NCBI GenBank assembly: GCA_965206595.1
Contig: OZ242214.1
Span: 6,656,001-6,720,000 of the forward strand
DNA from: Candidatus Latescibacterota bacterium
GTDB lineage: Bacteria > Latescibacterota > UBA2968 > UBA8231
Direction of reading: 5' to 3'
Length of the DNA: 64,000 nucleotides
The notes under the pieces: generated by a model
The model's input: the letters and a program-made list of their open reading frames with translations, nothing else
What the model was told of the DNA's origin: nothing
Database searches by the model: none
Shown: positions 43,927 to 58,397 of the stretch, one piece after another
Position numbering within the stretch: the stretch's first letter is position 1
How the letters are laid out: every line of letters starts with the position of its first letter
Made by a program: the position numbers and the translations under genes

Positions 43927-45928
43927 TTGACTCCCTCGTAACAACCCCGTTTTCAAGACAGAGGTTTTTTTCTTGAAACTTTAGTTTCACCAACATGAAA
44001 AAGAATCGGGAATGCGCCGCTATGTAAGCAGCTTCAGCGCCATATCGTCCGATGGCCTCGAATCGGGCTTATAAAGCCTTTTGCGGCGCCGAAAGGAACT
44101 TCCGTTCCCTTTTTCAGCCCATCGCCGGAGCTATGGCTTCGGGTTTGGGCGTAAGCGCCCGCAGCATTCTCTTGAAATTGCAAGCCAGGGCTTTGAGGTA
44201 AACGGCCAGCTCCACGCGCCAACGCCCGCGCACGCGCAGGGCGCCCAGCCCGTGTCTTCGTTTCAGTTCCGAGACCGTGGCCTCGATGCCGGCGCGAATG
44301 CGATAGCGCTCCCGGAAGGCGCCGCTGGCCATGGCGCGGCGGCGACGTTCGAGGTTGACGGCTTTCAGGTCCACGGTCACGGCGTAGCCGTCCCCGTCCT
44401 GGTTCGGCCGCACCGGGCAGAGGGGAAACAGGGCGCAGGTCTGGCAGCTTCGGCGCTCGAAGGTCAGCACCACGTGGTGCTTCTTCTTCTCATACGACGT
44501 TTGCTCGCGGGCCAGGTGTCCGGCCGGGCAGATGGCCGGATCCCGGAGACGGGCCTCGACGAGGAAGTCGGCCTCGGTCACCGTATCGGGCCGCTCCTCG
44601 ACGTCGACCTGGGGGCCTTTGACCGGGCTGACCAACTCGGTGCCGAGGCGTTCGGCGTGGATGGCATGGTCGCCGGAGCCGAAGGCGGTGTCGGCGACCA
44701 GCTCGTCGGGTCGCTGCCCGCGCTCTTCGAGGGCCTCCAGCACCGGCATCGTCGCGTGCTCGTCACTGGCGCAGGCATCGGTCACCGCTACGTGGGTGAT
44801 CATGTTCACGGTGTCGGTCTGGTCGTCGTCGGTCTGGTCGTCGTCAGTCTCGACGCAGGTCTCGGCGATCTGCACCTCATACCCCTTTGCCCTTGCGGCC
44901 GTGGTAGGTGGCCTCGGCATCATAGGGGCTTTGCAGCGAGTCGCTGCCGACGTGCTCCGGCGCCTTCAGCGCCACCGGCACGCCGCCTTCGCCGGCGTCG
45001 TCGTCCTCGGTCGAGGGGCGCTGCTTGTCCGCGACCACGTCGCACTGCTCCCACAGCAGGCGCTGCAGCAGCGCCCAGGACTCCAGGCCCTCGGCCGCCG
45101 TGCCCGCACACAGCTGATGGAGACGGTAGAGGTCGCGGGCGCACACCGGCAGCCGCCTCTTGCCCGTGCCGGAGGGCGCGTCCTGGTAGGCCGTGGCGCT
45201 GCCGTCCTCCTTCAGGTAGCGCTCGCGCAGGCGCTTCGACACCCGCCCGTACAGGCGCGGATGCTCCGCCGCCAGGGTTTTCAGAAAGTGACGGAGGGTC
45301 TCACACAACAGCCCCAGACGCGACAACACCGCGATGTTGCTGAGCACGTGGGTGGAGTCCAGGCGTTGCCGGGTGACCTTCGTACCCAACGCTTGCAGAA
45401 TGCCATCCGTAGTCGCCTCGAACGCCTGCCGGCCGCGGTCATGGGCCAGCAAGCGGGCGCGGAAGTTGTGCAGCGTCAGGACGTTGTTAGTCCTCGTCTT
45501 CTGCGCCAGGTGGGCCTCCTCCGGGGTCAGCTCCAGGGCGTGCTGCCACAACAGGCTGAACTCCAGCTGCTCCAGCGCCTCGGCGTCGGTCAGAGCGAAC
45601 ATCTCCTTGAGCAGAAGCACGCCCAAGACCGTCGCCACCGGCTGGTTGGGACGACCGTTGTCGTCGCAATACAAGGACGCAAACTGCGCTTCATCGATCA
45701 GCGGCAAGGCACGCGTGCGAAAGGTCTCCGCCCAGCTCGCCTGCAGGCGCTGCCGCTTGGCCGCAGGCACCAGGTTGCGGCTCTCGAACAGGGTGCGTTG
45801 CGAATCCTTCGTACGAAACATCAGCCCCATCCACTAGAGAGGAAGTGTGTGACGGATTGGTATACCCAATATACCAAGAATCCCTGATTATCGGGGCTGT
45901 GAGAGAGGGGTTTTTACGAGAGAATCAA
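43927..45928 (-). mobile_element. IS1182/IS5-like insertion sequence (~2.0 kb)
   Basis: Imperfect terminal IRs: TTGACTCCCTCGTAACAACCC at the left end and the reverse complement TTGATTCTCTCGTAAAAACCC at the right end. Encloses a transposase. No clear TSD. Confidence 0.85.
44114..45830 (-). pseudogene. IS1182-family-like DDE transposase, frameshifted at C4 run 44882-44885
   Basis: DUF772-like N-terminus (DNGRP...LLLKEM..LTD.EA), LDSTH, KGYEVQIAET, ADTAFGS, CxxCxxxxxC, YRIRAGIEATVSELKR. Confidence 0.85.
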
Positions 45929-46179: not shown

Positions 46180-49100
46180 TCACGGCGTGTTGTTCGTCAC
46201 CGTCGTCGTCGTAAGAGGCTGCACCCAAAAGCCCCAGGAGGGCTCGTTATTGGGGCGGTTCCGATTATAATAGCCATACTCGTCCCTGAGATCTTTACCG
46301 TTTCTAAGGTGGACGTATGCCACCGTCACCGCGTCGGTCGCCGCTACCGCCGACTCCAGAGTCAGCGTTACCTCTACCCCGCTCACGGCAACGCTGCTGA
46401 CTGTTCGGGCCGCGCCTTCAACCATCACCGTAAAGGCACTTGGTGAGGCGACGTAACGCTCATCTAATTTCACCTCTGAGTTAAGTGTCAGCGTTGCGCC
46501 ATCCACCTCTGCCGACTCCGGCAGGAATACCGGCCAGATGCGGAAGCGTTCCAGGTCAGGCGCCCGGTTCCCCAACAGGTCCCTGAGCCCCTTCACTAAG
46601 CCCCCAATAGGCCGGTTGTATGCCACCGCCACCCCGGCCGCTGTTACCGCCAAATCGAGGGTCAGTATCACCTCTTTCCCGCTCACGGTAACGCTGCGGA
46701 CCCTTCGCACCCCAGCCACAGACCCCTCCCTCACCTTGAAGGAATTTTCCGGTACGATGTCCATGTCCTCGTTCAGGGCCTCGCTAAAGACAAGTGTCAG
46801 CGTTACGCTGCCATCCGCCTCCGCCCTTATCTCCGACAGCGTCGGAGGTATAGTGTCTATTGATCGCACCTGGTATGGAAGGGAGACAGAACCTGCACCA
46901 TTCGCATTGACCGCCCGCAGCTCGAACAAGTAATAAGTCCTGTTAGTCAAGCCGGTCACGGTGTACTTCATCGCGTGGACCTCACCGGGGGCGCTCATGG
47001 CGATCGGCGTCCAGGTGTCGGGAAACGTGTCGTCTGACCCGAAGTCCGACTCCTTCTTGCGGAATTCATAGCCGGTGATGGAGCTGCCGCCATCCGCCGG
47101 CGCGGTCCAACTCAGCTCCACCTCACTACCGGTTTTTAAGTTTCTCGCCGACAGCCCCGGCACACCCGGCACGTCAGGGGTGCTGGTATGGAGCAGCGCC
47201 ACCGCAACCGTATTATCAGCTGCCGGCAGGGCAAAGCCGGAGGGAATTTCCCATTGATAGGAGGAACCAAAGTCGGTGAATTTTACGTCGGCATCGCCGA
47301 GATCAAACTCCGTTGTGCCTACGACTAAAATCAGATTTGTGCGATCGGGAATAGCAAAAGTGTCGAATCCAAGAATCATTTTGGATTGATAAGTCCTCAG
47401 ATCGCTTGCTACATAATTTCTGCCTGCAAACTCGAAATCCGTATCAGAGAGTTCACCAATCCAACCATCGGAATACCCAACAGCGCCAAATGACGCCCCC
47501 ACCGTCAGTGTGGCAGACCAGGCCAGGCTGGTCCCCTCTTCAAGCGTAGCCCCGCTTCCCGATGCGGACCAAGTGCTCTCACCTTCGTCATTCTCCGCCC
47601 GCACCTGCACTTCGCAGTTCCTGTCCGGGGTCAAACCCGTAAGGGTCGTGGTCAAGTCCGTGCCAGTGTATTCCGCATCCGTGAAGTCGCCGCTGCTGCC
47701 GATTCGATACTGCACATCGTAGTCCGTGATCACCGGCCCGGTGTTATCCGGCTCTGTCCAGGTCACCGTCAGGCTGGTGGATGAGGCCGCCATCACCTTC
47801 GGCGCATCGGCCCTGTCCGGCGGTTCAGCTACATCTTTCACGTTGATCGTCACGGCGATGGTCGCGCTGCCGCCGTGCTCGTTCTCGGCGGTCACCGTCA
47901 CCGAGTAGCTGTCCTTCGTCTCATGGTCGTACGTCTCCTCATCGTTAGTCCGAAGCTGACCGCTGGTCTCAACGATGGTGAAACTTCCCGCATTCGTACC
48001 TCCGAGGCTGTAGGTCAGTGCGCTCGTCTCCTCGTCGGTCGCGCTCACCGCATCCCCGATGTTCCGTGTCCCTGTCGTGTTCTCTTCCAGGTGGCGCGTC
48101 GCGCTCGTACCATCGCTGAAGGTCGGCACCTGATTGACACTGGTCGTCTCATTAACCAATGGCGACCAGTCACCTGGACCTTCGTCGTTGGTCGCCCGCA
48201 CCTGCATCTGATAGGTCGTGGCCGGGGTCAAGCTCATAATGGTCGTGGTCAGTGCCGTGCCCTCGTGAGTTACAGAAATAAACGAGCCGCCGCTCTCACG
48301 GTATTGCACGTCGTAGTCCGTAATCGCCGGCCCGGTGTTATCCGGCTCTGTCCAGATAACCGTCAGGCTATTCAACGTCACGGCCGTCACTGTTGGCGTC
48401 GCTGGAGCCGCTGGCGGTTCGATCTCATCGTTCAGGGTGATCCTCACGACAATGGTCGCACTGCCGCTGTGCTCGTCTTCGGCTGTCACCGTCACTACAT
48501 ACGAGCTCTTCGTCTCATGGTCGTACGTCACACCAGTCTTGGTCTGAAGCTGACCGCTGGTCTCAACGATGGTGAAACTCCCCGCATCGTTACCTCCGAG
48601 GCTGTAGGTCAGTGCGCTCGTCTCCTCGTCGGTCGCGCTCACCGCATCCCCGATGTTCTCTCCCGCCACCGCGTTCTCGGCAAAGCTGCGCGCCGGCGAT
48701 GCCTCGCTGAACGTCGGCAGCTGATTGGCGCGGGTCGTCCTGCTGCCCGAATCAGACCATGGGCTCCTCCCCTCGGCATTGATCGCCTGCACTTGCACCT
48801 CGTAGGTCGTGCCCGGGGTCAAGTCCGTAATGGCCGTGGTCAGCGCCGTGCCCTCGTGAGTCACACCCGTGAACGCACCGCTGCTGCCCTGGCGGTATTG
48901 CACATCGTAGTCGGTGATCGCCGGCCCGGTGTTCGCAGGGGCGGTCCAGATCACCGTCAGGCTGGTGGAGGATGTCGCCGTCACGGTCGGCGCAGTCGGC
49001 TTGTCCGGCGCCTCGCCAGTCACATCGGTCAAGGCGATCGTCACGTTGATGGTCGCGCTGCCGCCGTACTGGTCCTCTGCCCGCACCATTACCGAGTAGC

Positions 49101-51678
49101 TATTCTTCGTCTCATAGTTGTAGTCAATGCCTGTCCTGGTTTGAAGCTGACCAGTGCCCGAGACGATGCTGAAATTCTCCGCCTCCGTGCCCTGGAGGCT
49201 GTAGCTCAGTGTGCCGCCATCGCCGTCCGGGTCGGTCGCGCTCACCGGATTCCCGATGTTCTGTCCCGCCGCCGTGTTCTCGGCAAAGCTGCGCGTCGTG
49301 CTCGTACCATCGCTGAACGTCGGTGCTTGATTGGCCCTGGTCGTCCCATCAACCAATGGCGACCACGCACTCTCTCCTTCGTCATTCTCCGCCCGCACTT
49401 GCACCTGGTAGCTCCTGTCCGGAGTCAAGTGCGTAATGGTCGTGGTCCGTGCCGTGCCCTCGTGAGTCACATCCGTGAACGCGCCGCTGCTGCCCTGACG
49501 GTATTGCACATCGTAGTCGGTGATCTCAGGCCCGGTGTTCGCAGGGGCGGTCCAGATCACGGTCAGGCTGTTCAATGTCGAGACCGACACCGTGGGCTTG
49601 GCCGGAGCCGCTGGCGGTTCGTCCACATCGGTCAAGGTGATCGTCACGGCGATGGTCGCACTGCCGCCATGCTCATCCACGGCTTTCACCGTCACCAGAT
49701 ACGTGCTCTGCGTCTCATGGTCGTACGTCACTTCATCGTTAGTCTGAAGCTGACCGCTGGTCTCAGCGATGGTGAAACTCGCCGCATCCCCGCCTTCGAG
49801 GCTGTAGGCCAGTGTGCCGCCATCGCCGTCCGGGTCGGTCGCGCTCACCGGATTCCCGATGTTCTGTCCCGCCGCCGTGTTCTCGGCAAAGCTGCGCGTC
49901 GTGCTCGTACCATCGCTGAACGTCGGTGCTTGATTGGCTCTGGTCGTCCCATCAACCAATGGCGACCACACACTCTCTCCTTCGTCATTCTCCGCCCGCA
50001 CTTGCACCTGGTAGCTCCTGTCCGGAGTCAAGTGCGTAATGGTCGTGGTCCGTGCCGTGCCCTCGTGAGTCACATCCGTGAACGCGCCGCCGCTGCCCTG
50101 ACGGTATTGCACATCGTAGTCGGTGATCGCGGGCCCGGTGTTCGCAGGGGCGGTCCAGATCACGGTCAGGCTGGTGGACGATACATTCCTCACCGTCGGC
50201 GCATCGGGTCTGCCCGGCGGTTCTTTCACATTGTTCACTTCAATCGTCACACTGATGGTGGCATGTCCGCCATGCTCGTCCTCTACCCTCACCCTCACGG
50301 AATAACTTATCGTCGCTCCCTCATAGTCGTACGTCACACCAGCCTCAGTTTGAAGCTGACCGCTGGTCTCATCGATGGTGAAACTCGCCGCATCCCTGCC
50401 TTCGAGGCTGTAGGTCAGTGTGCCGGTGTCCGTGTCGTCGGTCGCGATCACCGGATTCCCGATGTTCTCTCCCGCCGCCGTGTGCTCGTCGAATCGGCGC
50501 GTGGCGCGCGTGCCCTCGGTGAACTCCGGCCACTGATTGTCACTGGTCCTCTCGCTGCCCGATGGCGACCAGTCACCTGTACTTTCGGCATTGGTCGCCC
50601 TCACTTGCACTTCGTAACGTGTGCCCGGGGTCAAGCCCGGAATGGTCGTGGTCAGGTCCGTGCCATCGTATCCTGCATCCGTGAAGGTGCCACTGCTGCC
50701 GATTCGATACTGCACATCGTAGTCCGTGATCGCCGGCCCGGTGTTATCCGGCTCTGTCCAGATCACCCTCAGACTGGTGGATGAGGCCACCTCCACTCTC
50801 GGTGTATTGGGTCTCTCCGGTACTGGTGCCACGACGACTGTGAAGGTCGCTTGCACGCTATTGCCCTGACTCTCATGTGCTGTCAGGGTGATGGTTGCAT
50901 TTCCTTCCTCCCCGGAGGTGATCGTCACCGTCGAACCCGAGATGCTCACCGCTGCCACATTCGGGTTCGACGAAGAAACCTCATACCTCAGACTGGCTGA
51001 AGAACTGATGATGTTCGACACATCCACAGACTTCTGGCTGCCATCCGGAGACAGCGTCTGCGTGTCAATGGAACCGACGACCTCTATCGGCCTGCCAAGG
51101 CTGCTGAGCAGCCCAACCCCAACTGTATGATTAACGGGCGGCAGGGCAAAGCCGGAGGAGACTGTCCAGACATAGGTGGAACCATAATCGGTTTCTCTTT
51201 CTTCGGCCTCGCCCAGATTAAACTTCGTTGTGCCTACGACCAAAGTCAGAGGTGTGCGATCAGAAATAGTTTTTTCGGCGACATCAAGAATCATTTTGGA
51301 TTGATAAGTCCTCAGTGCCGTTAGTTCATAACTTGTGCTTGCAAACACAAAATCCGTATCAGAGAGTTTACCAGCCAAATCGGAATACCCCGAACTGCCA
51401 AATGTCTCCCCCACCGTCAGTATGGCAGACCAGATCAGGCTGGTCCCCAACTCAATCGTAGCCCCCATGCCCGATGCGGACCAAGTGCTCTTCCCTCTGG
51501 TATTGATCGCCCGCACTTGCACCTCGTAGCTCGTGCCCGGGGTCAAGCCCGTGATCGTCGTGCTCAGGTCCGTGCCATCGTGAGTCACAGGGATAAACGC
51601 GCCGCTGCTGCCCTCACGGTATTGCACATCGTAGTCAGTGATGGCGGGTCTGGCGTTCGCAGGGGCGGTCCATGTCAC
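46180..51678 (-). CDS. C-terminal part of giant surface protein: about 8 FN3, 5 cadherin-like and 2 SwmB-like repeats
   Basis: W(T)xPxNTGPxITDYDVQYR and YxVQVRAxNxEG (FN3). NQxPxF..., YDHE, xTAxDxxGG (cadherin). LTLxFSEAL (SwmB-like). No signal peptide, and the frame is open upstream to the poly-C tract. Confidence 0.85.
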   Translation of the reverse strand: MTWTAPANARPAITDYDVQYREGSSGAFIPVTHDGTDLSTTITGLTPGTSYEVQVRAINTRGKSTWSASGMGATIELGTSLIWSAILTVGETFGSSGYSDLAGKLSDTDFVFASTSYELTALRTYQSKMILDVAEKTISDRTPLTLVVGTTKFNLGEAEERETDYGSTYVWTVSSGFALPPVNHTVGVGLLSSLGRPIEVVGSIDTQTLSPDGSQKSVDVSNIISSSASLRYEVSSSNPNVAAVSISGSTVTITSGEEGNATITLTAHESQGNSVQATFTVVVAPVPERPNTPRVEVASSTSLRVIWTEPDNTGPAITDYDVQYRIGSSGTFTDAGYDGTDLTTTIPGLTPGTRYEVQVRATNAESTGDWSPSGSERTSDNQWPEFTEGTRATRRFDEHTAAGENIGNPVIATDDTDTGTLTYSLEGRDAASFTIDETSGQLQTEAGVTYDYEGATISYSVRVRVEDEHGGHATISVTIEVNNVKEPPGRPDAPTVRNVSSTSLTVIWTAPANTGPAITDYDVQYRQGSGGAFTDVTHEGTARTTTITHLTPDRSYQVQVRAENDEGESVWSPLVDGTTRANQAPTFSDGTSTTRSFAENTAAGQNIGNPVSATDPDGDGGTLAYSLEGGDAASFTIAETSGQLQTNDEVTYDHETQSTYLVTVKAVDEHGGSATIAVTITLTDVDEPPAAPAKPTVSVSTLNSLTVIWTAPANTGPEITDYDVQYRQGSSGAFTDVTHEGTARTTTITHLTPDRSYQVQVRAENDEGESAWSPLVDGTTRANQAPTFSDGTSTTRSFAENTAAGQNIGNPVSATDPDGDGGTLSYSLQGTEAENFSIVSGTGQLQTRTGIDYNYETKNSYSVMVRAEDQYGGSATINVTIALTDVTGEAPDKPTAPTVTATSSTSLTVIWTAPANTGPAITDYDVQYRQGSSGAFTGVTHEGTALTTAITDLTPGTTYEVQVQAINAEGRSPWSDSGSRTTRANQLPTFSEASPARSFAENAVAGENIGDAVSATDEETSALTYSLGGNDAGSFTIVETSGQLQTKTGVTYDHETKSSYVVTVTAEDEHSGSATIVVRITLNDEIEPPAAPATPTVTAVTLNSLTVIWTEPDNTGPAITDYDVQYRESGGSFISVTHEGTALTTTIMSLTPATTYQMQVRATNDEGPGDWSPLVNETTSVNQVPTFSDGTSATRHLEENTTGTRNIGDAVSATDEETSALTYSLGGTNAGSFTIVETSGQLRTNDEETYDHETKDSYSVTVTAENEHGGSATIAVTINVKDVAEPPDRADAPKVMAASSTSLTVTWTEPDNTGPVITDYDVQYRIGSSGDFTDAEYTGTDLTTTLTGLTPDRNCEVQVRAENDEGESTWSASGSGATLEEGTSLAWSATLTVGASFGAVGYSDGWIGELSDTDFEFAGRNYVASDLRTYQSKMILGFDTFAIPDRTNLILVVGTTEFDLGDADVKFTDFGSSYQWEIPSGFALPAADNTVAVALLHTSTPDVPGVPGLSARNLKTGSEVELSWTAPADGGSSITGYEFRKKESDFGSDDTFPDTWTPIAMSAPGEVHAMKYTVTGLTNRTYYLFELRAVNANGAGSVSLPYQVRSIDTIPPTLSEIRAEADGSVTLTLVFSEALNEDMDIVPENSFKVREGSVAGVRRVRSVTVSGKEVILTLDLAVTAAGVAVAYNRPIGGLVKGLRDLLGNRAPDLERFRIWPVFLPESAEVDGATLTLNSEVKLDERYVASPSAFTVMVEGAARTVSSVAVSGVEVTLTLESAVAATDAVTVAYVHLRNGKDLRDEYGYYNRNRPNNEPSWGFWVQPLTTTTVTNNTP

Positions 51679-51704: not shown

Positions 51705-54700
51705 CTACTGCCGGCGCATTGGGTCTGGTCGGTGGTGGTGGGGGGGGGGCGGGGGGGTTACCGACCCACCATCACCATCACCACTGCTCGAGCCGGGCGG
51801 GGTCCGGGGCGGCCTGGGGGGCGGCTTGGGCTCGACGGTGAGGTTGAAGCTCAGCGACGCCTCCAATCCCTTCGGGTCGCGGGCGGTCACCGAGATCCGG
51901 GTCTGCCCGGTTTTCCTGGGGGTGATCAGCAGGCCGGTCCCCTCGACGGCCGCGGTGGCCACCGCTTCGTTGCTCGAGGTGGCGGTGTAGGTCAGGACGT
52001 CTTCTTCGTCCGGGTCGGTGAAGGCGCTCGACAGCTCGACCCGTGCCGGGCTGCCGATGCGGATCTTGCGGTTGGCCAGTGCTTTGGCCTCCGGGGGGCG
52101 GTTGGACGGGTACACGGTCACGGCCACCGGCAGGGTGGCAGCCCGGCCCCCTTCGTCGCGGGCGGTCACCGAGACCGTCACCTCGCCCGGGGCGACCGGG
52201 GCGATGGTCACCGTCGAGTCGGCCAGACTCGCGGCGGCGACCGCCTCGTCGCTGGAAGTCGCGGTGAGGGTCAGGGGGCCCCCTTCCGGGTCGCCGAAGC
52301 GGCCGGTCAGGTTCAGGGTCGCCGAGGCCCCCTCTACTTTCAGGATCTGCGCCGGCAGCCCGGCCCCCAGGGTCAGGCCGTAGGGCTCCTTCAGGCCGGT
52401 GGTGACCAGGTCTTCCACGTCGCTGCCGTCGAGATTCGCCCGCTGGATCTTGTCGGTGCCGTAGTCGGTCCAGTACATCCTGCCCTCTACAAGGTCGAGG
52501 GCGATCGCCTGGGAGGTCTGCAGGCCCTCGGTGACCAGGTCTTCCACACCGGAGCCGTCGAGATAAGCCCGCTGGATCTTGTCCGTGCCCCAGTCGGGCC
52601 AGTACATGCGGCCCTCTCCCAGGTCGAGGGCGATCCCTCGGGGCTGGTTGAGGCCGGTGACCAGGTCCTCGACCTGGGAGCCGTCGAGATTGGCCCGCTG
52701 AATCCGGTCGCTGCCCCAGTCGGTCCAGTAGATCTTGCCGCCGTCCCGATCGAGGGCGAGACCGTAGGGCTCGTTGAGGCCGGTAGTGACGAGGTCTTCG
52801 ATTTCGGAGCCGTCGAGGTGGGACCGCTGAATCTTGTCGGTGCCCCAGTCGGTCCAGTAGATCTTCCCTCCGGCCAGGTCGAGGGCGAGGCCGAACGGCT
52901 CCTGCAAGCCCTCGGTTACCAGGTCTTCGACCTTTGAGCCGTCGAGGTGGGACCGCTGGATCTTGTCGGCGCCGCTGTCGGTCCAGTACATGCGGCCCCC
53001 GTCCCGGTCGAGAGCGAGGTCCCGGGGCTGCATGAGTCCGGTGACCAGGGTGTGGATGCCGCTGCCGTCGAGCTCGGCGCGCTGGATGCGGTCGCTGCGG
53101 GCGTCGGTCCAGTAGAGCCAGGGCACGGCTACCGGGGGCTCGTTGGAAGCCTGCACGGTGACGGTGAAGGTTCGGGTTGCCTGCAGTCCCCCCGGGTCGC
53201 GGGCGGTCACGGTGATGGCGGTCTGGCCTACGGCCAGCAGACGCAGGGTCACCAGGGAATCGGCTACTTCTACTGACGCCACCGCTTCGTCGCCGGAGGA
53301 GGCCGTGTAGGTCAGGGCGTCGCCGTCCGGGTCGCTGCCGAAAAGCTCGAGGGTCAGCGAGTCGCCGGTTGCCGCGGTGCGGTCGGCCAGCGGCTCCAGG
53401 GAGGGGGCCTGGTTGTCGGCGGCCGCGGTCCGAACCAGGGCCAGGCCCCGCGGGCTCAGCAAGCCCTCGGTCACCAGGTCTTCCACCTCGCTGCCGTCGA
53501 GGTTGGACCGCTGGATGCGGTCGGTGCTGCTGTCGGCCCAGTAGAGCTTGCCCGCAGAAACGTCGAGGGCCAGGCCCCGGGGCGTGCCCAGACCGGTGGT
53601 GACGAGGTCCTCGACTTCCGTGCCGTCGAGGTTGGACCGCTGGATGCGGTCGCTGCCGCTGTCGGCCCAGTAGAGCTTGCCCGCGGCCGTATCCAGGGCC
53701 AGCCCCCGGGGGATCCGCAGGCCGGTAGCGACCAGATCCTCGATCCCGCTGCCGTCGAGGTTGGCCCGCTGGATCTTGTCGGCGCCGCTGTCGGTCCAGT
53801 AGAGCTTGCCGCCGGCCGCGTCCAGGGCCAGCCCCAACGGGGTCCGCAGGCCGGTGACGAGGTCTTCCACTTGAGAGCCGTCGAGGTTGGACCGCTGAAT
53901 CCGGTCGGTGCCGTTGTCCGTCCAGTAGAGCTTGCCCGCGGCCGCGTCCAGGGCCAGCCCCAGGGGAATCTGCAGGTCGGTGGTGACCAGGTCCTCCACC
54001 TCGGAGCCGTCGAGGTTGGACCGCTGGATGCGGTCGCTGCCGTAGTCGGTCCAGTAGAGCTTGCCGGCGGCCTCGTCCACGGCCAGCCCGCGCGGATTGA
54101 CCAGGCCGCTGTCGATCACGTCCTCCACCCCCGTGCCGTCGAGGTGGGACCGCCGGATCCGGTCCGCCTCCGCGTCCGTCCAGTAGAGCCGGACGACGGT
54201 CCCGGGGCCCCCGGCTCCGACGAGGACGGCGAAGCGCTGCACGGCCTCCAGGCCCTCCGGGTCGCGGGCGGTCGCGGTGATCGTGGCCCGGCCCATCGAC
54301 AGCGCGTAGACCGTCAGCAGGGAGTCGGTCACCTCGACCCGGGCTACCGCCTCGTCGCTCGATGAAGCCGTGTAGGTCAGGGCGTCGCCGTCCGGGTCGC
54401 TGGCGGCCGCCGCCAGGGTCAGGGTGTCGCCGGCCGCCGCGGCCCGGTCGGCCAGTGGCGCCAAGGTGGGGGGCCGGTTGCCGACCGTCTCTGCAGTCCG
54501 GGCCAGGGCCAGCCCCCGCGGACTCAGCAGGCCCTCGGTCACCAGGTCTTCGATTTCAGAGCCGTCGAGATTCGCCCGCTGGATCTTGCCGGTGCCGCTG
54601 TCCGTCCAATAGAGCTTGCCCCCCTCCGCGTCGAGGGCCAGGCCCCGGGGGGTGTGCAAGCCGGTGCTTACCAGCTCTTCCACCTCGGAGCCGTCGAGGT

Positions 54701-56312
54701 TGGCCCGCTGAATCTGGTCGCTGCCGTTGTCCGTCCAGTAGAGCTTGCCCCCGGCTGCGTCCACGGCCAGCCCCCGGGGAAGGTCCAGGCCGGTGGCGAC
54801 CAGGTCCTCGATTTCGGAGCCGTCGAGGTTGGACCGCTGGATCTTGTCGGCGCCGCTGTCGGTCCAGTAGAGCTGGCCGCCGGCTGCATCCAGGGCCAGG
54901 CTCAGCGGCGTCTGCAGGCCGGTGACCACATCCTCGACTTGAGAGCCGTCGAGGTTGGACCGCTGGATCTTGTCGCTGCCGTAGTCGGTCCAGTAGAGTT
55001 TGCCCGTTCCCGCGTCGAGGGCCAGGCCCAGGGGGATGCGCAGACCGGTGGTGACGAGGTCCTCGACTTGAGAGCCGTCGAGGTTGGACCGCTGAATCCG
55101 GTCGCTGCCGTAGTCGGTCCAGTAGAGCTGGCCGGCGGCTGAGTCCACGGCCAGGCCGCGCGGGTTGACCAGGCCGCTGTCGATTACGTCCTCGACCCCG
55201 GAGCCGTCCAGGCGGGAGCGCTGAATGCGGTCGCCGTCCGCGTCCGTCCAGTAGAGCCAGGTCGTATCCCCGCCGGCCGCCAAGGACCCGATCCCTTCCG
55301 GCAGCGACGGGTCGGACGGGTCGGCGTGGTAGGCCTCGATGAGCCGGGCGTCGTCCAGGTCGACCTGCCCGTCCCGGTTGACGTCGCCGAGAGAAATGTC
55401 GCCGGTGGGCAGGGACAGGGTCGGGTCCTCGCTGTAGGAGGCGATCAGCAGGGCGTCGGCGAGATCGACCCGGCCGTTGCCGTCGACGTCCCCCAGCAGG
55501 CCGCCTGCAACCGCCGCCTTGCCCCGAGGCAGGTCCGCCAGCGTTTGAACCTGGATCTCGACCCGCCCGGCCCCCACCCGGAAGGCCGGGTCGACCCAGG
55601 GAACCAGCCCCGATCCCGAGACCGTCAGCCCGTAGAGCTGACCCTCGCCGTGGACCGAAGCCCTCGCCCCATCCGAAACCGCTCCACCCGCCGGGACCAC
55701 CGGGCCGTCCAGCAGCACCATCGACCGCGTCAGGCGCTCCCCGCCGCCCAGCAGACGGTACAGGTACACCCCCGAAGCCACGCCTCGCCCGGAGGCGTCG
55801 GTCGCGTTCCAGGTTGCGGTGTGAAAGCCGGCCGGCCGCGCCCCGTCGACCAGGGTCGTCACCCGCTGCCCCAGGATGTTGAACACCTCCAGGCGCACCC
55901 GCGCCGGGGCCGGCAGCTGATACGGAATGATCGTCGAGGGATTGAACGGGTTGGGGTAGTTCTGACCCAGCTGCAGGCGCGCCGGCAGGGGCGCCGCCCG
56001 GTGCAGCGCCTTCAGGGGCAGGGCGAAATAGCCGCTCTCATCCGCGGTGGCGCCCAGCGAGCGCCCCAGCTCGGCGAACAGCCGCACCCGCGCCCCGGCT
56101 GCCGGGGCGCCCGAAGACAGAAGCACCCGACCCTCCAGCAGCGGCTCGGCGCCGGCGGCGGCCCCGGCGCCTGATCCCGGTCCCGCGAGGCAGCCGAGCA
56201 CCGCCAGCAGCCATCCAAAACCGCCGGCACCCGGGAAAGAGGCCGAGGAGCGCCGGGCGGCCAGGGTGCGGGGCGTATCGATGGGGTTCTCCAGTCGTAA
56301 GGTCGGCCGCAT
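51705..56312 (-). CDS. N-terminal part of giant surface protein: T9SS-type-A/FlgD domain, dockerin/EF-hand, three 6-bladed YWTD propellers, Ig-like domains
   Basis: Signal peptide, QNYPNPFNPST...GVYLY, GDVDGNGRVD/GDVNRDG, 18 YW(T/A/P)D repeats in three blocks of six, A(S)DPDGDALTY Ig-like repeats. Confidence 0.88.
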   Translation of the reverse strand: MRPTLRLENPIDTPRTLAARRSSASFPGAGGFGWLLAVLGCLAGPGSGAGAAAGAEPLLEGRVLLSSGAPAAGARVRLFAELGRSLGATADESGYFALPLKALHRAAPLPARLQLGQNYPNPFNPSTIIPYQLPAPARVRLEVFNILGQRVTTLVDGARPAGFHTATWNATDASGRGVASGVYLYRLLGGGERLTRSMVLLDGPVVPAGGAVSDGARASVHGEGQLYGLTVSGSGLVPWVDPAFRVGAGRVEIQVQTLADLPRGKAAVAGGLLGDVDGNGRVDLADALLIASYSEDPTLSLPTGDISLGDVNRDGQVDLDDARLIEAYHADPSDPSLPEGIGSLAAGGDTTWLYWTDADGDRIQRSRLDGSGVEDVIDSGLVNPRGLAVDSAAGQLYWTDYGSDRIQRSNLDGSQVEDLVTTGLRIPLGLALDAGTGKLYWTDYGSDKIQRSNLDGSQVEDVVTGLQTPLSLALDAAGGQLYWTDSGADKIQRSNLDGSEIEDLVATGLDLPRGLAVDAAGGKLYWTDNGSDQIQRANLDGSEVEELVSTGLHTPRGLALDAEGGKLYWTDSGTGKIQRANLDGSEIEDLVTEGLLSPRGLALARTAETVGNRPPTLAPLADRAAAAGDTLTLAAAASDPDGDALTYTASSSDEAVARVEVTDSLLTVYALSMGRATITATARDPEGLEAVQRFAVLVGAGGPGTVVRLYWTDAEADRIRRSHLDGTGVEDVIDSGLVNPRGLAVDEAAGKLYWTDYGSDRIQRSNLDGSEVEDLVTTDLQIPLGLALDAAAGKLYWTDNGTDRIQRSNLDGSQVEDLVTGLRTPLGLALDAAGGKLYWTDSGADKIQRANLDGSGIEDLVATGLRIPRGLALDTAAGKLYWADSGSDRIQRSNLDGTEVEDLVTTGLGTPRGLALDVSAGKLYWADSSTDRIQRSNLDGSEVEDLVTEGLLSPRGLALVRTAAADNQAPSLEPLADRTAATGDSLTLELFGSDPDGDALTYTASSGDEAVASVEVADSLVTLRLLAVGQTAITVTARDPGGLQATRTFTVTVQASNEPPVAVPWLYWTDARSDRIQRAELDGSGIHTLVTGLMQPRDLALDRDGGRMYWTDSGADKIQRSHLDGSKVEDLVTEGLQEPFGLALDLAGGKIYWTDWGTDKIQRSHLDGSEIEDLVTTGLNEPYGLALDRDGGKIYWTDWGSDRIQRANLDGSQVEDLVTGLNQPRGIALDLGEGRMYWPDWGTDKIQRAYLDGSGVEDLVTEGLQTSQAIALDLVEGRMYWTDYGTDKIQRANLDGSDVEDLVTTGLKEPYGLTLGAGLPAQILKVEGASATLNLTGRFGDPEGGPLTLTATSSDEAVAAASLADSTVTIAPVAPGEVTVSVTARDEGGRAATLPVAVTVYPSNRPPEAKALANRKIRIGSPARVELSSAFTDPDEEDVLTYTATSSNEAVATAAVEGTGLLITPRKTGQTRISVTARDPKGLEASLSFNLTVEPKPPPRPPRTPPGSSSGDGDGGSVTPPPPPHHHRPDPMRRQ
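51740..51757. repeat. G10-C-G7 homopolymer tract at the frameshift between the two giant ORFs
   Basis: Coding strand C7-G-C10. C11 or C8 in the second run would join ...SVTPPPPPPPP to TRPNAPAVAPASSTSLKVTW. Confidence 0.85.
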
Positions 56313-56630: not shown

Positions 56631-56711
56631 GAAAAGGGAAGACTGGAAAGGGGCCGTGCGGTCGGATCTCAGCGGGGATCCGCAGCCCGCGGACAGGCAG
56701 AATGCCCGGCT

Positions 56712-56878
56712 AGGTCTTCGACCTGGCTGCCGTCGGGGTTGGCCCGCTGGATCTTGTCGGTGCCGTAGTCGGTCCAGTACATCCTGCCCTCGCCCAGATC
56801 GAGGGCGATCGCCTGGGAGGTCTGCAGGCCCTCGGTGACCAGATCCTCGATTTCGGAGCCGTCGAGGCGGGCGCGCTG
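56712..56878 (-). pseudogene. Detached single YWTD repeat fragment
   Basis: Encodes QRARLDGSEIEDLVTEGLQTSQAIALDLGEGRMYWTDYGTDKIQRANPDGSQVEDL. Long identical stretches with 52441-52550. Confidence 0.8.
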
Positions 56879-57186
56879 CGCGTGCGCGGACGCTGGCGCG
56901 TGGAGCTGGCCGTCTACCTCAAAGCGCTGGCCTGCAATATCAAGAGAATGGTGCGGGCGCTTACGCCCAAACCCGAAGCCATAGCTCCGGCGATGGGCTG
57001 AAAAAGGGAACGGAGGTCCCTTTCGGTGCCGGAAAAAGGCCTGATAAGCCCGATTCGAGGCCATCGGACGATAGAGCGCTGAAGCCGCTAAACTGCGGCG
57101 CATTCTCGATTCTTTTCATGTGGGTGAAACTAAAGTTTCAAGAAAAAATCTCTGTCTTGAAAACGGGGTTGTTACGAGGGAGTCAA
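56869..57186 (+). mobile_element. 3' remnant of the same IS in inverted orientation
   Basis: Encodes LRVRGRWRVELAVYLKALACN...APAMG*, then a trailer and IR GGGGTTGTTACGAGGGAGTCAA. Closely matches the reverse complement of 43927-44250. Confidence 0.9.
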
Positions 57187-57188
57187 TC

Positions 57189-57343
57189 TTGATTCTCTCG
57201 TAAAAACCCTACGTCGCTCAGAATGCCCGGTTTATCACACAACATATAGTGTATGCCTTGTCTTTGTTGGCCAATATATAGTGGCGATCTAATGTGCTGA
57301 ATCGCTGAACATCCTCAAAATGGGGTTTATACGAAGAAGTCAA
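57189..57343. mobile_element. MITE copy 1 (155 bp) with IS-type IRs and two NrdR-box-like sites
   Basis: Begins TTGATTCTCTCGTAAAAACCC (same as the IS left IR) and ends GGGGTTTATACGAAGAAGTCAA. AT-rich and non-coding. Confidence 0.8.
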
Positions 57344-57345
57344 TG

Positions 57346-57499
57346 TTGATTCTCTCGTAACAACCATACGTCGCTCAGAACACCGGTTTTTTATACAACA
57401 TATAGTGTATGCTTTGTCTTGGTTGGCCAATATATAGTGGCGCTCAAATGTGCTGAATCGCTGAACACCCTCAAAATGGGGTTTATACGAAGAAGTCAA
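57346..57499. mobile_element. MITE copy 2 (154 bp)
   Basis: Diverged tandem copy of MITE 1, separated from it by 2 bp (TG). Confidence 0.8.
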
Positions 57500-57501
57500 T
57501 G

Positions 57502-57702
57502 TTGGTATTCGATGTCGACGATCCTCAGGGAGATGGTGGACCTGATGGAATTTATACTATCCCGCCTGTGGACCCCGACCCCGAGTCCAGCCAGGGGCCG
57601 GATTTTTTCGGGGACGGACTGCTTGTGCCCGTTGGTGGAACGGAGGACAGCGCCGTGGAGTCCGTCTCGTGGGGGCGCATCAAGGCCTCACTCCAGCCCT
57701 AG
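57502..57702 (+). pseudogene. 3' remnant of a third WGRIK-tail gene, truncated at the MITE array
   Basis: LVFDVDD...DFFGDGLLVPVGGTEDSAVESVSWGRIKASLQP*. Confidence 0.7.
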
Positions 57703-58397
57703 ACCGCCAGGTACTCCCTCAACCGGGAGTCGTCTTCCTTCAGCTCCTCCGCGGTCGCCGAAAAACGGATCGCGCCCCGCTCCATCACGTGCACCCGGTC
57801 GCTCAGGGCGAGCGCGAACTGCGGGTTCTGCTCGGCCAGCAGGATGGAAAGTCCGGTCTCCCTCAGGGCGGCGAGCTGCTCCTGCATCGACCTGACGACC
57901 AGCGGCGCCAACCCCTCCGACGGCTCGTCGAGCAGCAGCAGCTTCGGGCTCCCGACGAGGCTGCGGGCGATCGCCAGCAACTGCTGCTGCCCGCCGCTGA
58001 GCACTCCGCCGAGCCTTTTTGCGAGCGGGCCCAAATCCGGGAAGAGGTCGTACACGAAACGCTCGTCCCGCTGCCTTTTCCCGGGCCGTCTCGCGATCTG
58101 CAGGTTCTCCTCCACGCTCAGTCCCGGGAATATCCGCCGCTCCTCCGGCACGTAGCCGATCCCCAGGCGGGCGATCTTGTGAGTCGGGGCCGCGGTGACG
58201 TTCCTGCCGTTCCACTCGACCCGCCCGCGCCGCGCCGGGGTCAGGCCCATGATGCTGCGCAGGGTCGTGGTCTTGCCGGCGCCATTGCGCCCCATCAGGG
58301 CCACCACTTCCCCTTCGCCGACTTCGAAGCTCACCCCCGACAGAACGCGGCTGAGGCCGTAGGAGACATGCAGGTCGGTTACCTGGAGCCGGGTCAC
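57699..58397 (-). CDS. livF: Branched-chain amino acid ABC transporter ATPase
   Basis: GRNGAGKT, YVPEERRIF, LSGGQQQ, LLLDEPSEGLAP, AEQN. Confidence 0.92.
   Translation of the reverse strand: MTRLQVTDLHVSYGLSRVLSGVSFEVGEGEVVALMGRNGAGKTTTLRSIMGLTPARRGRVEWNGRNVTAAPTHKIARLGIGYVPEERRIFPGLSVEENLQIARRPGKRQRDERFVYDLFPDLGPLAKRLGGVLSGGQQQLLAIARSLVGSPKLLLLDEPSEGLAPLVVRSMQEQLAALRETGLSILLAEQNPQFALALSDRVHVMERGAIRFSATAEELKEDDSRLREYLAV
57700..57727. repeat. Direct repeat copy 2 (3' end of livF)
   Basis: TAGACCGCCAGGTACTCCCTCAACCGGG. Confidence 0.85.

What the first reader, a model, noticed from the sequence alone, without database searches (positions are those of the whole stretch)
57237..57440. Each MITE carries a tandem pair of NrdR-box-like operators exactly 32 bp apart
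Seen: ACACAACATATAGTGT (57237-57252) and GGCCAATATATAGTGG (57269-57284), repeated as ATACAACATATAGTGT (57393-57408) and GGCCAATATATAGTGG (57425-57440). The boxes are almost unchanged between copies while neighbouring bases vary. Established: the NrdR box consensus is acaCwAtATaTwGtgt (box 1 matches 15/16), and boxes occur in pairs about 31-32 bp apart. NrdR senses ATP/dATP and represses ribonucleotide reductase genes. No nrd gene is in this window, and I saw no such pair in the full IS. Inference: a mobile NrdR operator cassette that could place genes under dNTP control, titrate NrdR, or use NrdR binding to couple transposition to nucleotide status. I do not know of a described example.
Basis: partly seen in the sequence, partly recalled or inferred. 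Interest (0 to 1): 0.8.

Follow-up and report, generated by a model that had tools for sequence, protein, structure and literature searches.

The report
Mobile mini-element carrying NrdR-type operator pair
Two adjacent copies of a 155-base non-coding mobile element each carry, at their centre, a pair of sites that closely match the binding site of NrdR, the bacterial repressor that senses DNA-building-block levels, which suggests the element uses this host protein, though binding was not tested.

Summary
All four 16-mers are at the stated coordinates, 32 bp start to start.

**What the units are**
- They are real MITEs of 155 and 154 bp (57189-57343 and 57346-57499).
- They carry the terminal inverted repeats of a 2-kb IS1182-like IS (43927-45928).
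- They have 2-bp target duplications.
- They sit head to tail next to a truncated IS end.

**Match to NrdR criteria**
- Both boxes meet the published NrdR criteria: C4, A6, A8, T9, T11 and G13, a 16-bp linker, and an AT-rich core.
- They nearly equal synthetic boxes shown to bind E. coli and Streptomyces NrdR.
- This strict pair occurs in 5 of 1000 window shuffles and 11 of 100,000 MITE shuffles.

**Relatives**
- Five more copies occur in a Latescibacterota MAG.
- A homologous 165-bp family (5 copies) occurs in Dehalococcoidia MAGs.
- The box pair stays central in both families while the linker and left arm diverge.
- The Dehalococcoidia boxes have C at position 11 and fail the criteria.

**Other points**
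- The parental IS lacks the boxes.
- No nrd gene lies in the window or beside the five solo copies.
- Whether these lineages encode nrdR could not be checked.

**Verdict:** probably an NrdR-type operator kept for the element's own benefit. Binding and role are inferred.

The parts
43927..45928 (-). Full-length parental IS (2002 bp), IS1182-like. The left inverted repeat (IRL) is at 45928 and the right inverted repeat (IRR) at 43927. The transposase is split by a frameshift into 44877-45830 and 44114-44923. It has no NrdR-like box pair.
   Evidence: Searches give the sequence, repeats and ORFs. One search gives Pfam DUF772, DDE_Tnp_1_6 and DDE_Tnp_1. One search gives NCBIfam NF033551 (IS1182 family) at 55.5 and 124.2 bits, both below the 270-bit cut-off because the gene is split. 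In one search, related full-length copies have single 570-600 aa reading frames. Searches find no box pair.
56869..57186 (+). Truncated 3' end of a second IS copy: the transposase C-terminus plus the right inverted repeat, which ends in GAGTCAA at 57186. It cuts into a fragment of an LDL-receptor-repeat gene on the minus strand.
   Evidence: inverted repeats I1-I4 to 43927-44246. (91.6% identity over 321 nt). (protein 26).
57187..57188 (.). 2-bp junction 'TC' between the IS right end and the left end of MITE1.
57189..57343 (+). MITE copy 1 (155 bp). IRL about 57189-57210, left arm, box pair, conserved right core 57285-57316, IRR about 57317-57343.
57237..57252 (+). MITE1 box 1, ACACAACATATAGTGT. 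It has C4, A6, A8, T9, T11 and G13 (6 of 6).
   Evidence: Criteria from PMC13584703.
57253..57268 (+). 16-bp linker. It is poorly conserved between families.
   Evidence: 7 of 15 aligned columns identical between families.
57269..57284 (+). MITE1 box 2, GGCCAATATATAGTGG (6 of 6 conserved positions).
57344..57345 (.). 2-bp junction 'TG' between MITE1 and MITE2.
57346..57499 (+). MITE copy 2 (154 bp, with a 1-nt deletion in the left arm). It is flanked by TG on both sides, so it has an intact 2-bp target duplication.
57393..57408 (+). MITE2 box 1, ATACAACATATAGTGT (6 of 6).
57425..57440 (+). MITE2 box 2, GGCCAATATATAGTGG (6 of 6).

Best explanation
**What it is**
- Each 155-bp unit is a non-autonomous derivative (MITE) of an IS1182-like insertion sequence.
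- It inserts at CAA-NN-TTG-like targets and duplicates the two middle bases.
- The element's own end recreates half of that target. New copies therefore land right beside existing ends, which explains the tandem pair and the IS-MITE abutment.

**The central module**
- At its centre the MITE carries a module absent from the parental IS: a bipartite operator of the NrdR type, with two 16-bp boxes and a 16-bp linker.
- I think this module most likely binds the host's NrdR tetramer in its dATP+ATP-loaded form.
- I think it is kept because it helps the element rather than the host.
- The probable mechanism is architectural. NrdR kinks the DNA at each box, and the structure paper writes of a sharp 180-degree turn. 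That bend would fold a DNA of about one persistence length so that the two terminal repeats meet. Alternatively, binding occludes the element.
- Either way, mobilisation would be tied to the dATP/ATP state of the cell.

**Shown versus inferred**
- Shown: MITE identity, motif match, central position, and conservation within and between families.
- Inferred: NrdR binding, and the direction and size of any effect on transposition.
For: **MITE identity**
- The terminal repeats equal those of the 2-kb IS.
- There are 7 copies in two Latescibacterota genomes. All 5 of 5 solo copies have 2-bp target duplications: AC, GT, CC, GC and GA.
- Intact transposases of about 570-600 aa occur in related IS copies that are 88-95% identical to the window's IS.

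**Operator match**
- Both boxes have all six highly conserved positions.
- The linker is 16 bp.
- AT content between C4 and G13 is 7 of 8 and 8 of 8.
- Box 1 differs from the synthetic consensus box only at positions 10 and 16. Box 2 equals the tested variant ACACAATATATAGTGG from position 4 onward.
[quoted passage not shown] Heterologous NrdRs bind each other's boxes (PMC13584703, sections 3 and 4 read).
- Strict pairs occur only in the MITEs among 304,663 bases. They are rare in shuffles: 5 of 1000 and 11 of 100,000.

**Conservation**
- Within families, 2 of 64 box columns vary against 29 of 156 non-box core columns (p = 0.0012).
- Between the Latescibacterota and Dehalococcoidia families (59% identical overall), identity is 12 of 16 for box 1 and 10 of 16 for box 2. 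It is 9 of 26 for the left arm and 7 of 15 for the linker.
- All four positions that differ between families in box 1 (1, 7, 11, 15) also differ in box 2 (hypergeometric p = 0.008). This fits one protein reading both boxes.
- Positions invariant in all four box types are 4, 5, 6, 8, 9, 10, 13 and 14. They include 5 of the 6 NrdR-critical positions.

**Geometry**
- The box pair is central.
- The right arm is 59 bp in both families. The left arm is 48 versus 59 bp, an 11-bp difference of about one helical turn.
- NrdR bends DNA sharply at each box (PMC9110341 passages; PMC12051234 passages).

**Not a transposase site**
- The box motif is absent from the full-length IS copies in the window and the 40 loci.
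Against: - No NrdR protein, nrdR gene or RNR gene could be examined in these genomes, so the host factor is assumed. NrdR is reported in 77% of bacterial genomes (PMC13584703 abstract/importance).
- The Dehalococcoidia family has C at position 11 in both boxes in 5 of 5 copies. It fails the published regex, and T11 is present in all 10 validated natural boxes in PMC13584703 Table 1. If the module's function is shared by both families, strict NrdR recognition is doubtful there.
- Box 2 of that family has only 5 of 8 AT between C4 and G13, which is at the reported lower limit.
- The stretch to the right of box 2 is conserved about as well as the boxes (22 of 31 between families) and has no NrdR explanation.
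- A 124-bp MITE with the same terminal repeats in a Kuenenia MAG (L035) has no boxes. The module is therefore not required for short elements of this IS type.
- The copy sample is small and biased: only copies with an exact 20-nt left end were retrieved.
- The within-family statistics treat related copies as independent.
- The motif was matched to NrdR after the fact.
Confidence: 0.45

Rival explanations
1. The central module is functional but is not an NrdR site. The two CAAYATAYRGT-type boxes, and perhaps the conserved right core, are bound by some other protein, such as another host factor or a lineage-specific regulator. Alternatively they act through DNA shape. On this view the likeness to the NrdR box is a coincidence of an AT-rich partial palindrome.
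For: - The Dehalococcoidia family keeps the architecture but has C11 in both boxes and fails the NrdR regex.
- The family-wide consensus reads equally well as a direct repeat about 31-32 bp apart.
- The conserved right core is unexplained by NrdR.
- The NrdR assignment was made post hoc.
- nrdR presence is unverified.
Against: - The Latescibacterota boxes meet every published sequence and spacing criterion.
- They nearly equal DNA that binds two distant NrdRs.
- 5 of the 6 NrdR-critical positions are invariant across all four box types. The NrdR-indifferent position 7 varies.
- I know of no other regulator with this box and spacing (recalled, not searched systematically).
Confidence: 0.3
2. 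The box pair is a passenger: a piece of an nrd promoter captured between IS ends when the MITE arose. It binds NrdR but plays no part in transposition. Its effects are on the host, through scattering NrdR operators, occasional repression or roadblock at insertion sites, or mild titration of NrdR. These are the first reader's options 1 and 2.
For: - The operator quality is as good as natural nrd operators.
- One copy (L017) lies 86 bp upstream of rimP-nusA, with the element pointing into the operon.
- MITEs with IHF sites are known to alter neighbouring transcription (PMC10969869 passages).
Against: - Host-level benefits act on single insertions and would not keep the module intact along the MITE lineage in two phyla while the linker and left arm diverge.
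- The window copies and the five solo copies lie in degraded or mobile-rich DNA or inside a broken gene, not in promoters.
- No sigma-70-type promoter is predicted in the element.
- No source nrd promoter could be found, because none was accessible.
Confidence: 0.2
3. The repeat is not mobile DNA. It is a local tandem duplication of a regulatory region belonging to a neighbouring gene.
For: It appears as a 156-bp tandem repeat of 2.2 copies in the window.
Against: - Five dispersed solo copies exist in another genome, with different flanks and 2-bp target duplications.
- The terminal repeats are shared with an IS.
- A homologous family exists in another phylum.
- There is no intact gene downstream in the window.
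Confidence: 0.02

Closest known systems
NrdR operators upstream of ribonucleotide reductase operons (nrdAB, nrdHIEF, nrdDG, nrdRJ)
   Same: - Two partially palindromic 16-bp boxes.
- A 15-16 bp non-conserved linker.
- C4, A6, A8, T9, T11 and G13 present.
- An AT-rich core.
- Near identity to synthetic boxes with measured nanomolar binding (PMC13584703).
   Different: - Not next to any RNR gene.
- Not overlapping a recognisable promoter.
- Carried inside a transposable element and present in several dispersed copies.
- The sister family has C11.
Correia elements of Neisseria and other bacterial MITEs with an IHF-binding site
   Same: A short non-autonomous element with terminal inverted repeats and an internal binding site for a DNA-bending host protein. 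The IHF site on a Correia element was shown to affect neighbouring transcription (PMC10969869 passages).
   Different: - The candidate host protein here is a nucleotide-sensing, RNR-specific repressor rather than a general nucleoid protein.
- The parental IS family is IS1182-like.
- A role in transposition is my inference and has not been shown for either system in what I read.
IS1182-family insertion sequences
   Same: The transposase has DUF772, DDE_Tnp_1_6 and DDE_Tnp_1 domains, and its best NCBIfam model is NF033551. The element is about 2 kb with imperfect terminal repeats.
   Different: - The window copy is frameshifted, and both halves score below the family cut-off.
- The CAA-NN-TTG target with a 2-bp duplication and end-adjacent insertion is described here from 12 MITE copies and about a dozen IS copies. 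It was not compared with ISfinder entries, which were not available.
Transposable elements that spread transcription-factor binding sites in eukaryotes
   Same: A MITE family whose copies each carry a consensus site for a host regulator.
   Different: This is a bacterial case. The copy number seen so far is low, and there is no evidence that neighbouring genes are wired into a regulon.

Membership tests
NrdR operator | Two 16-bp partially palindromic boxes | tested here: met
   Both boxes are present in 7 of 7 Latescibacterota copies.
NrdR operator | Highly conserved positions C4, A6, A8, T9, T11 and G13 in each box (PMC13584703) | tested here: met
   6 of 6 positions in both boxes of both window copies and of the 5 copies in loci L001, L007, L017, L019 and L020. 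Not met at T11 in 5 of 5 Dehalococcoidia copies.
NrdR operator | Linker of 15-16 bp (14-17 tolerated) | tested here: met
   16 bp in the Latescibacterota family and 15 bp in the Dehalococcoidia family.
NrdR operator | At least 63% AT between C4 and G13 | tested here: met
   Read from the sequence: 7 of 8 (box 1) and 8 of 8 (box 2). The Dehalococcoidia boxes have 7 of 8 and 5 of 8.
NrdR operator | Lies upstream of, and overlaps the promoter of, an RNR operon (or nrdR itself) | tested here: not met
   No RNR or ATP-cone family among the 41 distinct window ORFs scanned, or among 24 ORFs flanking the five solo copies. No sigma-70-type promoter in 56900-57750.
NrdR operator | The host genome encodes NrdR | not testable with these tools
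NrdR operator | Bound by the NrdR tetramer loaded with dATP and ATP | not testable with these tools
   This needs EMSA, MST or DAP-seq.
MITE (non-autonomous IS derivative) | Terminal inverted repeats shared with an autonomous IS | tested here: met
   The first 21-22 nt equal the IS left end, and the right end resembles the IS right end.
MITE (non-autonomous IS derivative) | Small, with no transposase coding capacity | tested here: met
   153-158 bp. The core is unrelated to the IS interior.
MITE (non-autonomous IS derivative) | Several dispersed copies with target-site duplications | tested here: met
   Two copies in the window plus five solo copies in MAG CBDCXV01. 5 of 5 solo copies have matching 2-bp flanks. 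MITE2 in the window has TG/TG and MITE1 has TC/TG.
MITE (non-autonomous IS derivative) | An intact transposase source in the same genome | tested here: inconclusive
   The only full IS in the window is frameshifted. Intact frames exist in the related MAGs (L016, L029, L034). The rest of the window's genome was not available.
IS1182 family | The transposase matches the family model above its cut-off | tested here: inconclusive
   NF033551 is the best hit for both halves (55.5 and 124.2 bits), but both fall below the 270-bit cut-off because the gene is split. Pfam gives DUF772 and DDE_Tnp_1_6.

The most novel reading that the evidence does not exclude
A MITE lineage that moves between bacterial phyla has recruited NrdR as its architectural host factor. 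NrdR is a nucleotide-sensing repressor whose DNA recognition is conserved across bacteria. The dATP+ATP-loaded tetramer would fold the 155-165 bp element into a U-turn at its centre and so bring the two ends together. Mobilisation would then be gated by the cell's dNTP and replication state. This would be the first role for NrdR outside transcription, and the first transposable element that reads nucleotide pools through it.
Probability: 0.2. Interest if true: 0.85.

Novelty: new variant of a known kind. Interest (0 to 1): 0.62.

Why it matters
- NrdR is treated as a repressor dedicated to ribonucleotide reductase genes. topA in Pseudomonas is a rare extra target (PMC4409342 passages).
- A consensus-quality NrdR operator sits at the centre of a mobile element, is conserved in two phyla and is absent from the parental IS. 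That would widen what NrdR is used for.
- It would also give a concrete, testable case of a bacterial MITE depending on, or being gated by, a specific metabolic sensor.
- It offers a natural multi-copy NrdR-site array for studying repressor titration.
- It warns that genome-wide NrdR-site predictions in MAGs can be inflated by repeats.

Tried and rejected
1. **Rfam.** A scan of the whole window at gathering thresholds gave 0 matches.
2. **Structured RNA or DNA.** RNAalifold on the 12 copies finds only pairing between the terminal repeats and two small hairpins. Only 2 of 29 pairs show compensatory change. A structured-RNA explanation was dropped.
3. **Outward promoter.** There are 0 sigma-70-type sites in 56900-57750. 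Promoter types of this phylum are not covered by the scan.
4. **Transposase binding sites.** The motif is absent from the full-length IS copies.
5. **More copies.** An nhmmer profile of the core against the window and 40 loci found only the 12 known copies. Blastn of both MITE families against 72,556 plasmids gave no match.
6. **nrdR in the lineage.**
   - Paper searches for NrdR with Latescibacter* returned 0 papers.
   - NrdR with Dehalococcoid* returned 1 irrelevant paper.
   - Latescibacter* with ribonucleotide reductase returned 2 papers, irrelevant by title.
   - The readable supplements of PMC9110341 hold none of four phylum names searched.
   - The MMBR review on NrdR is not held.
7. 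**Composite IS+MITE as a mobile unit.** The window and L017 share the arrangement IS right end, 2 bp, MITE. The MITE in L017 has its own GC/GC duplication, so independent end-adjacent insertion is simpler.
8. **Single strict boxes near IS ends in L010 and L011.** These were inspected and lack a partner box.
Full report

Yes. The four 16-mers are at the stated coordinates:
- box 1 at 57237-57252 and 57393-57408;
- box 2 at 57269-57284 and 57425-57440.

Starts are 32 bp apart in each unit, giving a 16-bp linker. Neither 16-mer occurs anywhere else in the window at up to three mismatches. Tandem Repeats Finder reports a 156-bp period, 2.2 copies, at 57160-57504. The region is AT-rich (MITE1 is 41.6% G+C) in a window of about 64% G+C.

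**2. Anatomy**

*The parental IS.*
- The window holds one full insertion sequence on the minus strand, 43927-45928 (2002 bp).
- Its ends are TTGATTCTCTCGTAAAAACCCC and GGGGTTGTTACGAGGGAGTCAA.
- Its transposase has DUF772, DDE_Tnp_1_6 and DDE_Tnp_1 domains.
- The best NCBIfam model is IS1182 family. Both halves score below the cut-off because the gene is frameshifted into 317- and 269-aa pieces.
- Related copies elsewhere have single frames of about 570-600 aa.

*The array at the finding.*
- A second, truncated copy of the IS 3' end lies at 56869-57186.
- Then follow, in order: 'TC', MITE1 (57189-57343, 155 bp), 'TG', MITE2 (57346-57499, 154 bp), 'TG'.
- Each unit starts with the IS left repeat and ends with a variant of the IS right repeat.
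- The roughly 105 bp in between are unrelated to the IS interior.

**3. Relatives**

*The scan.* I scanned one genome per GTDB species for the 20-nt left end (one position free). It returned 40 loci from many phyla: Latescibacterota, Dehalococcoidia, Kuenenia, Planctomycetota, Acidobacteria, Nostoc/Anabaena and others. The window's own tandem is not among them, so its genome is not in that collection.

*Latescibacterota copies.*
- The MAG CBDCXV01 carries five solo copies of the same MITE, 91-95% identical (L001, L007, L017, L019, L020).
- All five have matching 2-bp flanks (AC, GT, CC, GC, GA) inside a CAA-NN-TTG-like target.
- The window's IS is 88-95% identical to copies in that MAG and in OZ244619. 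A repeat-protein gene is 88% identical to one in L020.
- The window therefore comes from a related Latescibacterota. T9SS genes in the window fit this.

*Why tandem arrays form.* The element's end (…TCAA) plus two bases plus TTG recreates the preferred target. New copies therefore insert right beside old ends. This explains:
- the tandem pair in the window;
- a tandem pair in Dehalococcoidia (L021);
- three IS-MITE abutments (window, L017, L033).

*Limitation.* Only copies with an exact left end could be retrieved, so the census is incomplete.

**4. A second family in another phylum**

- Two Dehalococcoidia MAGs (CBDAOG01 and JAKZVY01) carry a 165-bp MITE: L021a, L021b, L022, L033 and L040.
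- It aligns with the Latescibacterota element over its whole length at 59% identity.
- The boxes align with each other:
  - box 1: ATACAACATATAGTGT versus GTACAATATACAGTCT;
  - box 2: GGCCAATATATAGTGG versus CCCCAACATACGGTAG;
  - linker: 16 versus 15 bp.
- Between-family identity by region:

| Region | Identical columns |
|---|---|
| Left repeat | 20 of 22 |
| Left arm | 9 of 26 (plus an 11-bp indel) |
| Box 1 | 12 of 16 |
| Linker | 7 of 15 |
| Box 2 | 10 of 16 |
| Right core | 22 of 31 |
| Right repeat | 19 of 27 |

- Within families, variable columns are as follows:
  - Latescibacterota: 2 of 32 box columns versus 15 of 73 non-box core columns;
  - Dehalococcoidia: 0 of 32 versus 14 of 83;
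  - pooled: 2 of 64 versus 29 of 156 (one-sided Fisher p = 0.0012).
- An earlier count on alignment A2 gave 2 of 32 versus 18 of 81 (two-sided p = 0.056).
- These tests treat related copies as independent. L021a and L022 are identical, so the p-values are optimistic.
- These counts omit the last base of the element.
- The four positions that differ between families in box 1 (1, 7, 11, 15) all differ in box 2 as well (p = 0.008). This is what one expects if one protein reads both boxes under the same rules.
- The box pair sits at the centre. The right arm is 59 bp in both families. The left arm is 48 versus 59 bp, which is 11 bp or about one helical turn.

**5. Is it an NrdR operator?**

- two 16-bp boxes, both required;
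- a 15-16 bp linker of no conserved sequence;
- highly conserved C4, A6, A8, T9, T11 and G13;
- C4 and G13 essential;
- at least 63% AT between them;
- positions 3, 5, 7, 10 and 14 tolerant.

*Match.*
- The consensus-based synthetic box is ACACAACATCTAGTGG. MITE1 box 1 differs from it only at positions 10 and 16.
- Box 2 equals the tested variant ACACAATATATAGTGG from position 4 on.
- NrdRs bind each other's operators.
- Both window copies and all five MAG copies have 6 of 6 conserved positions in both boxes.
- By my own count of the 10 natural boxes in that paper's Table 1, 7 have 6 of 6 and 3 have 5 of 6. The MITE boxes are thus as good as validated sites.

*Specificity.*
- The paper's loose regex is not specific genome-wide: one chance pair at 4121 and a mean of 1.24 hits per shuffled window.
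- The strict pair is found only in the MITEs in 304,663 bases. It appears in 5 of 1000 window shuffles and 11 of 100,000 MITE shuffles.

*Against the NrdR reading.*
- Both Dehalococcoidia boxes have C at position 11 (5 of 5 copies) and fail even the loose regex. T11 is present in 10 of 10 natural boxes of Table 1.
- The defining context is missing. No RNR or ATP-cone family appears among the 41 distinct window ORFs scanned or among 24 ORFs next to the five solo copies.
- No sigma-70-type promoter is predicted in the elements.
- I could not check whether these lineages encode NrdR.
- The only prior is that NrdR occurs in 77% of bacterial genomes (PMC13584703).

**6. Mechanism**

*What the evidence shows.*
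- The module is absent from the parental IS copies, so it is not a transposase site.
- It is conserved along the MITE lineage in two phyla while neighbouring sequence drifts.
- Selection on single insertions for host benefit would not produce that pattern. Selection on the element's ability to propagate would.

*What is known about NrdR.*
- NrdR bound to DNA produces two sharp kinks, one at each box.
- The passages I read describe two 90-degree kinks, and the structure paper writes of a sharp 180-degree turn of the DNA (PMC9110341 passages; PMC12051234 passages).

*My inference.*
- A 155-165 bp element is about one DNA persistence length (established physics), so its ends cannot easily meet.
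- A central U-turn with arms that are equal, or differ by one helical turn, would help the ends meet.
- My preferred reading is that the MITE uses NrdR as an architectural or gating host factor. NrdR binds DNA only when loaded with dATP plus ATP, so mobilisation would become sensitive to nucleotide status.
- The direction of the effect, help or hindrance, is not determined.
- A host factor whose recognition is conserved across bacteria would suit an element whose IS ends are identical over 20 nt in many phyla.
- All of this is inference. Only the sequence features are shown.

*Counter-points.*
- A 124-bp MITE with the same ends in a Kuenenia MAG has no boxes and has an internal hairpin instead.
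- The conserved right core remains unexplained.

**7. Rivals**

- **Another protein or a DNA-shape function, with only a coincidental likeness to NrdR boxes (0.3).** Favoured by C11 in the sister family and by the unexplained right core.
- **A captured nrd promoter fragment that binds NrdR but matters only to the host, through regulation or titration (0.2).** The contexts argue against it. The window copies and the five solo copies lie in degraded or mobile-rich DNA or in a broken dehydrogenase gene. Only L017 lies upstream of an operon, rimP-nusA.
- **A purely local tandem duplication.** Refuted.

**8. Comparison and novelty**

- It works like a natural NrdR operator in sequence and spacing, but it fails the context feature of that family.
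- It is a member of the MITE class, derived from an IS1182-like IS.
- Its nearest analogue is a Correia-type MITE with an IHF site (PMC10969869 passages).
- Searches for NrdR with MITE returned 0 papers.
- NrdR with insertion sequence, transposase or regulon terms returned 4 papers. I read passages of two and judged the other two by title.
- 'NrdR box' with transpos* returned 4 papers, none on the topic by title.
- I therefore found no description of NrdR boxes on a mobile element in the held library. Subscription journals and the NrdR review in MMBR were not available.
- I rate it a new variant of a known kind.

**9. Verdict**

- The element and the operator-like module are real and conserved. 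NrdR binding, and any coupling to nucleotide status, remain to be tested.
- Interest: 0.62.

Noticed in passing
window 43927-45928, 56869-57501; L017 3866-5441; L021 3856-4187; L033 4001-6153: The IS and its MITEs insert at CAA-NN-TTG-like targets with a 2-bp duplication. Because an element end recreates half the target, they pile up end to end. Examples are tandem MITEs with 2-bp junctions in two phyla and MITEs abutting IS ends in three loci. A 6-8 bp duplication of a fixed AANNTT target fits the sequence equally well.
   Followed up: partly
window 44877-44923: The only full IS in the window has its transposase split into two overlapping frames (317 and 269 aa). Related copies have single frames of about 570-600 aa, so this copy is probably inactive.
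   Followed up: partly
L001-L040: The 20-nt IS left end is identical in MAGs labelled Latescibacterota, Dehalococcoidia, Kuenenia, Planctomycetota, Acidobacteria, Gemmatimonadota, Nostoc/Anabaena, Fibrobacter, Desulfocapsa and Oscillospiraceae. This suggests wide horizontal spread of this IS type.
   Followed up: no
L035 3897-4020: A Kuenenia MAG has a 124-bp MITE with the same ends but no box pair. Its centre is a long perfect hairpin (GACGTAAGTCCTT…AAGGACTTACGTC).
   Followed up: no
window 57285-57316 and 57441-57472; L021 3962-3993: Just right of box 2 is a MITE-specific stretch (GCGCTC..ATGTGCT.AA.CGCTG.AAC) conserved between the two families about as well as the boxes. It has a short possible hairpin and no known function.
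   Followed up: partly
L040 68-252: This Dehalococcoidia MITE copy is flanked by a perfect 10-bp inverted repeat (TAGACATGGA / TCCATGTCTA) instead of a direct duplication. It may have inserted into a palindrome or into another element.
   Followed up: no
window 46180-51678 and 51705-56312 (minus strand); fragment 56669-56870: There are two giant repeat proteins. One is 1832 aa with FN3 and cadherin repeats. The other is 1535 aa with LDL-receptor class B/NHL beta-propeller repeats and Ig-like domains. A fragment of another LDL-repeat gene is cut off by the truncated IS.
   Followed up: no
window 57499-57702 (+): A 67-aa open frame right after MITE2 has no family match. It ends in …SWGRIKASLQP. 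It may be the C-terminal remnant of a gene whose 5' part was lost to the insertions. This is my reading and was not tested.
   Followed up: no
window 4121-4160: This is the only other match in the window to the published loose NrdR-pair regex. It is GC-rich coding sequence inside the SprA-like gene and a chance hit. It shows the regex is unspecific outside RNR upstream regions.
   Followed up: yes
L001 3241-4356: The MITE copy in L001 appears to interrupt a D-2-hydroxyacid dehydrogenase gene. Only the C-terminal part of the NAD-binding domain is left downstream, and a DDE_3 transposase fragment lies next to it.
   Followed up: partly
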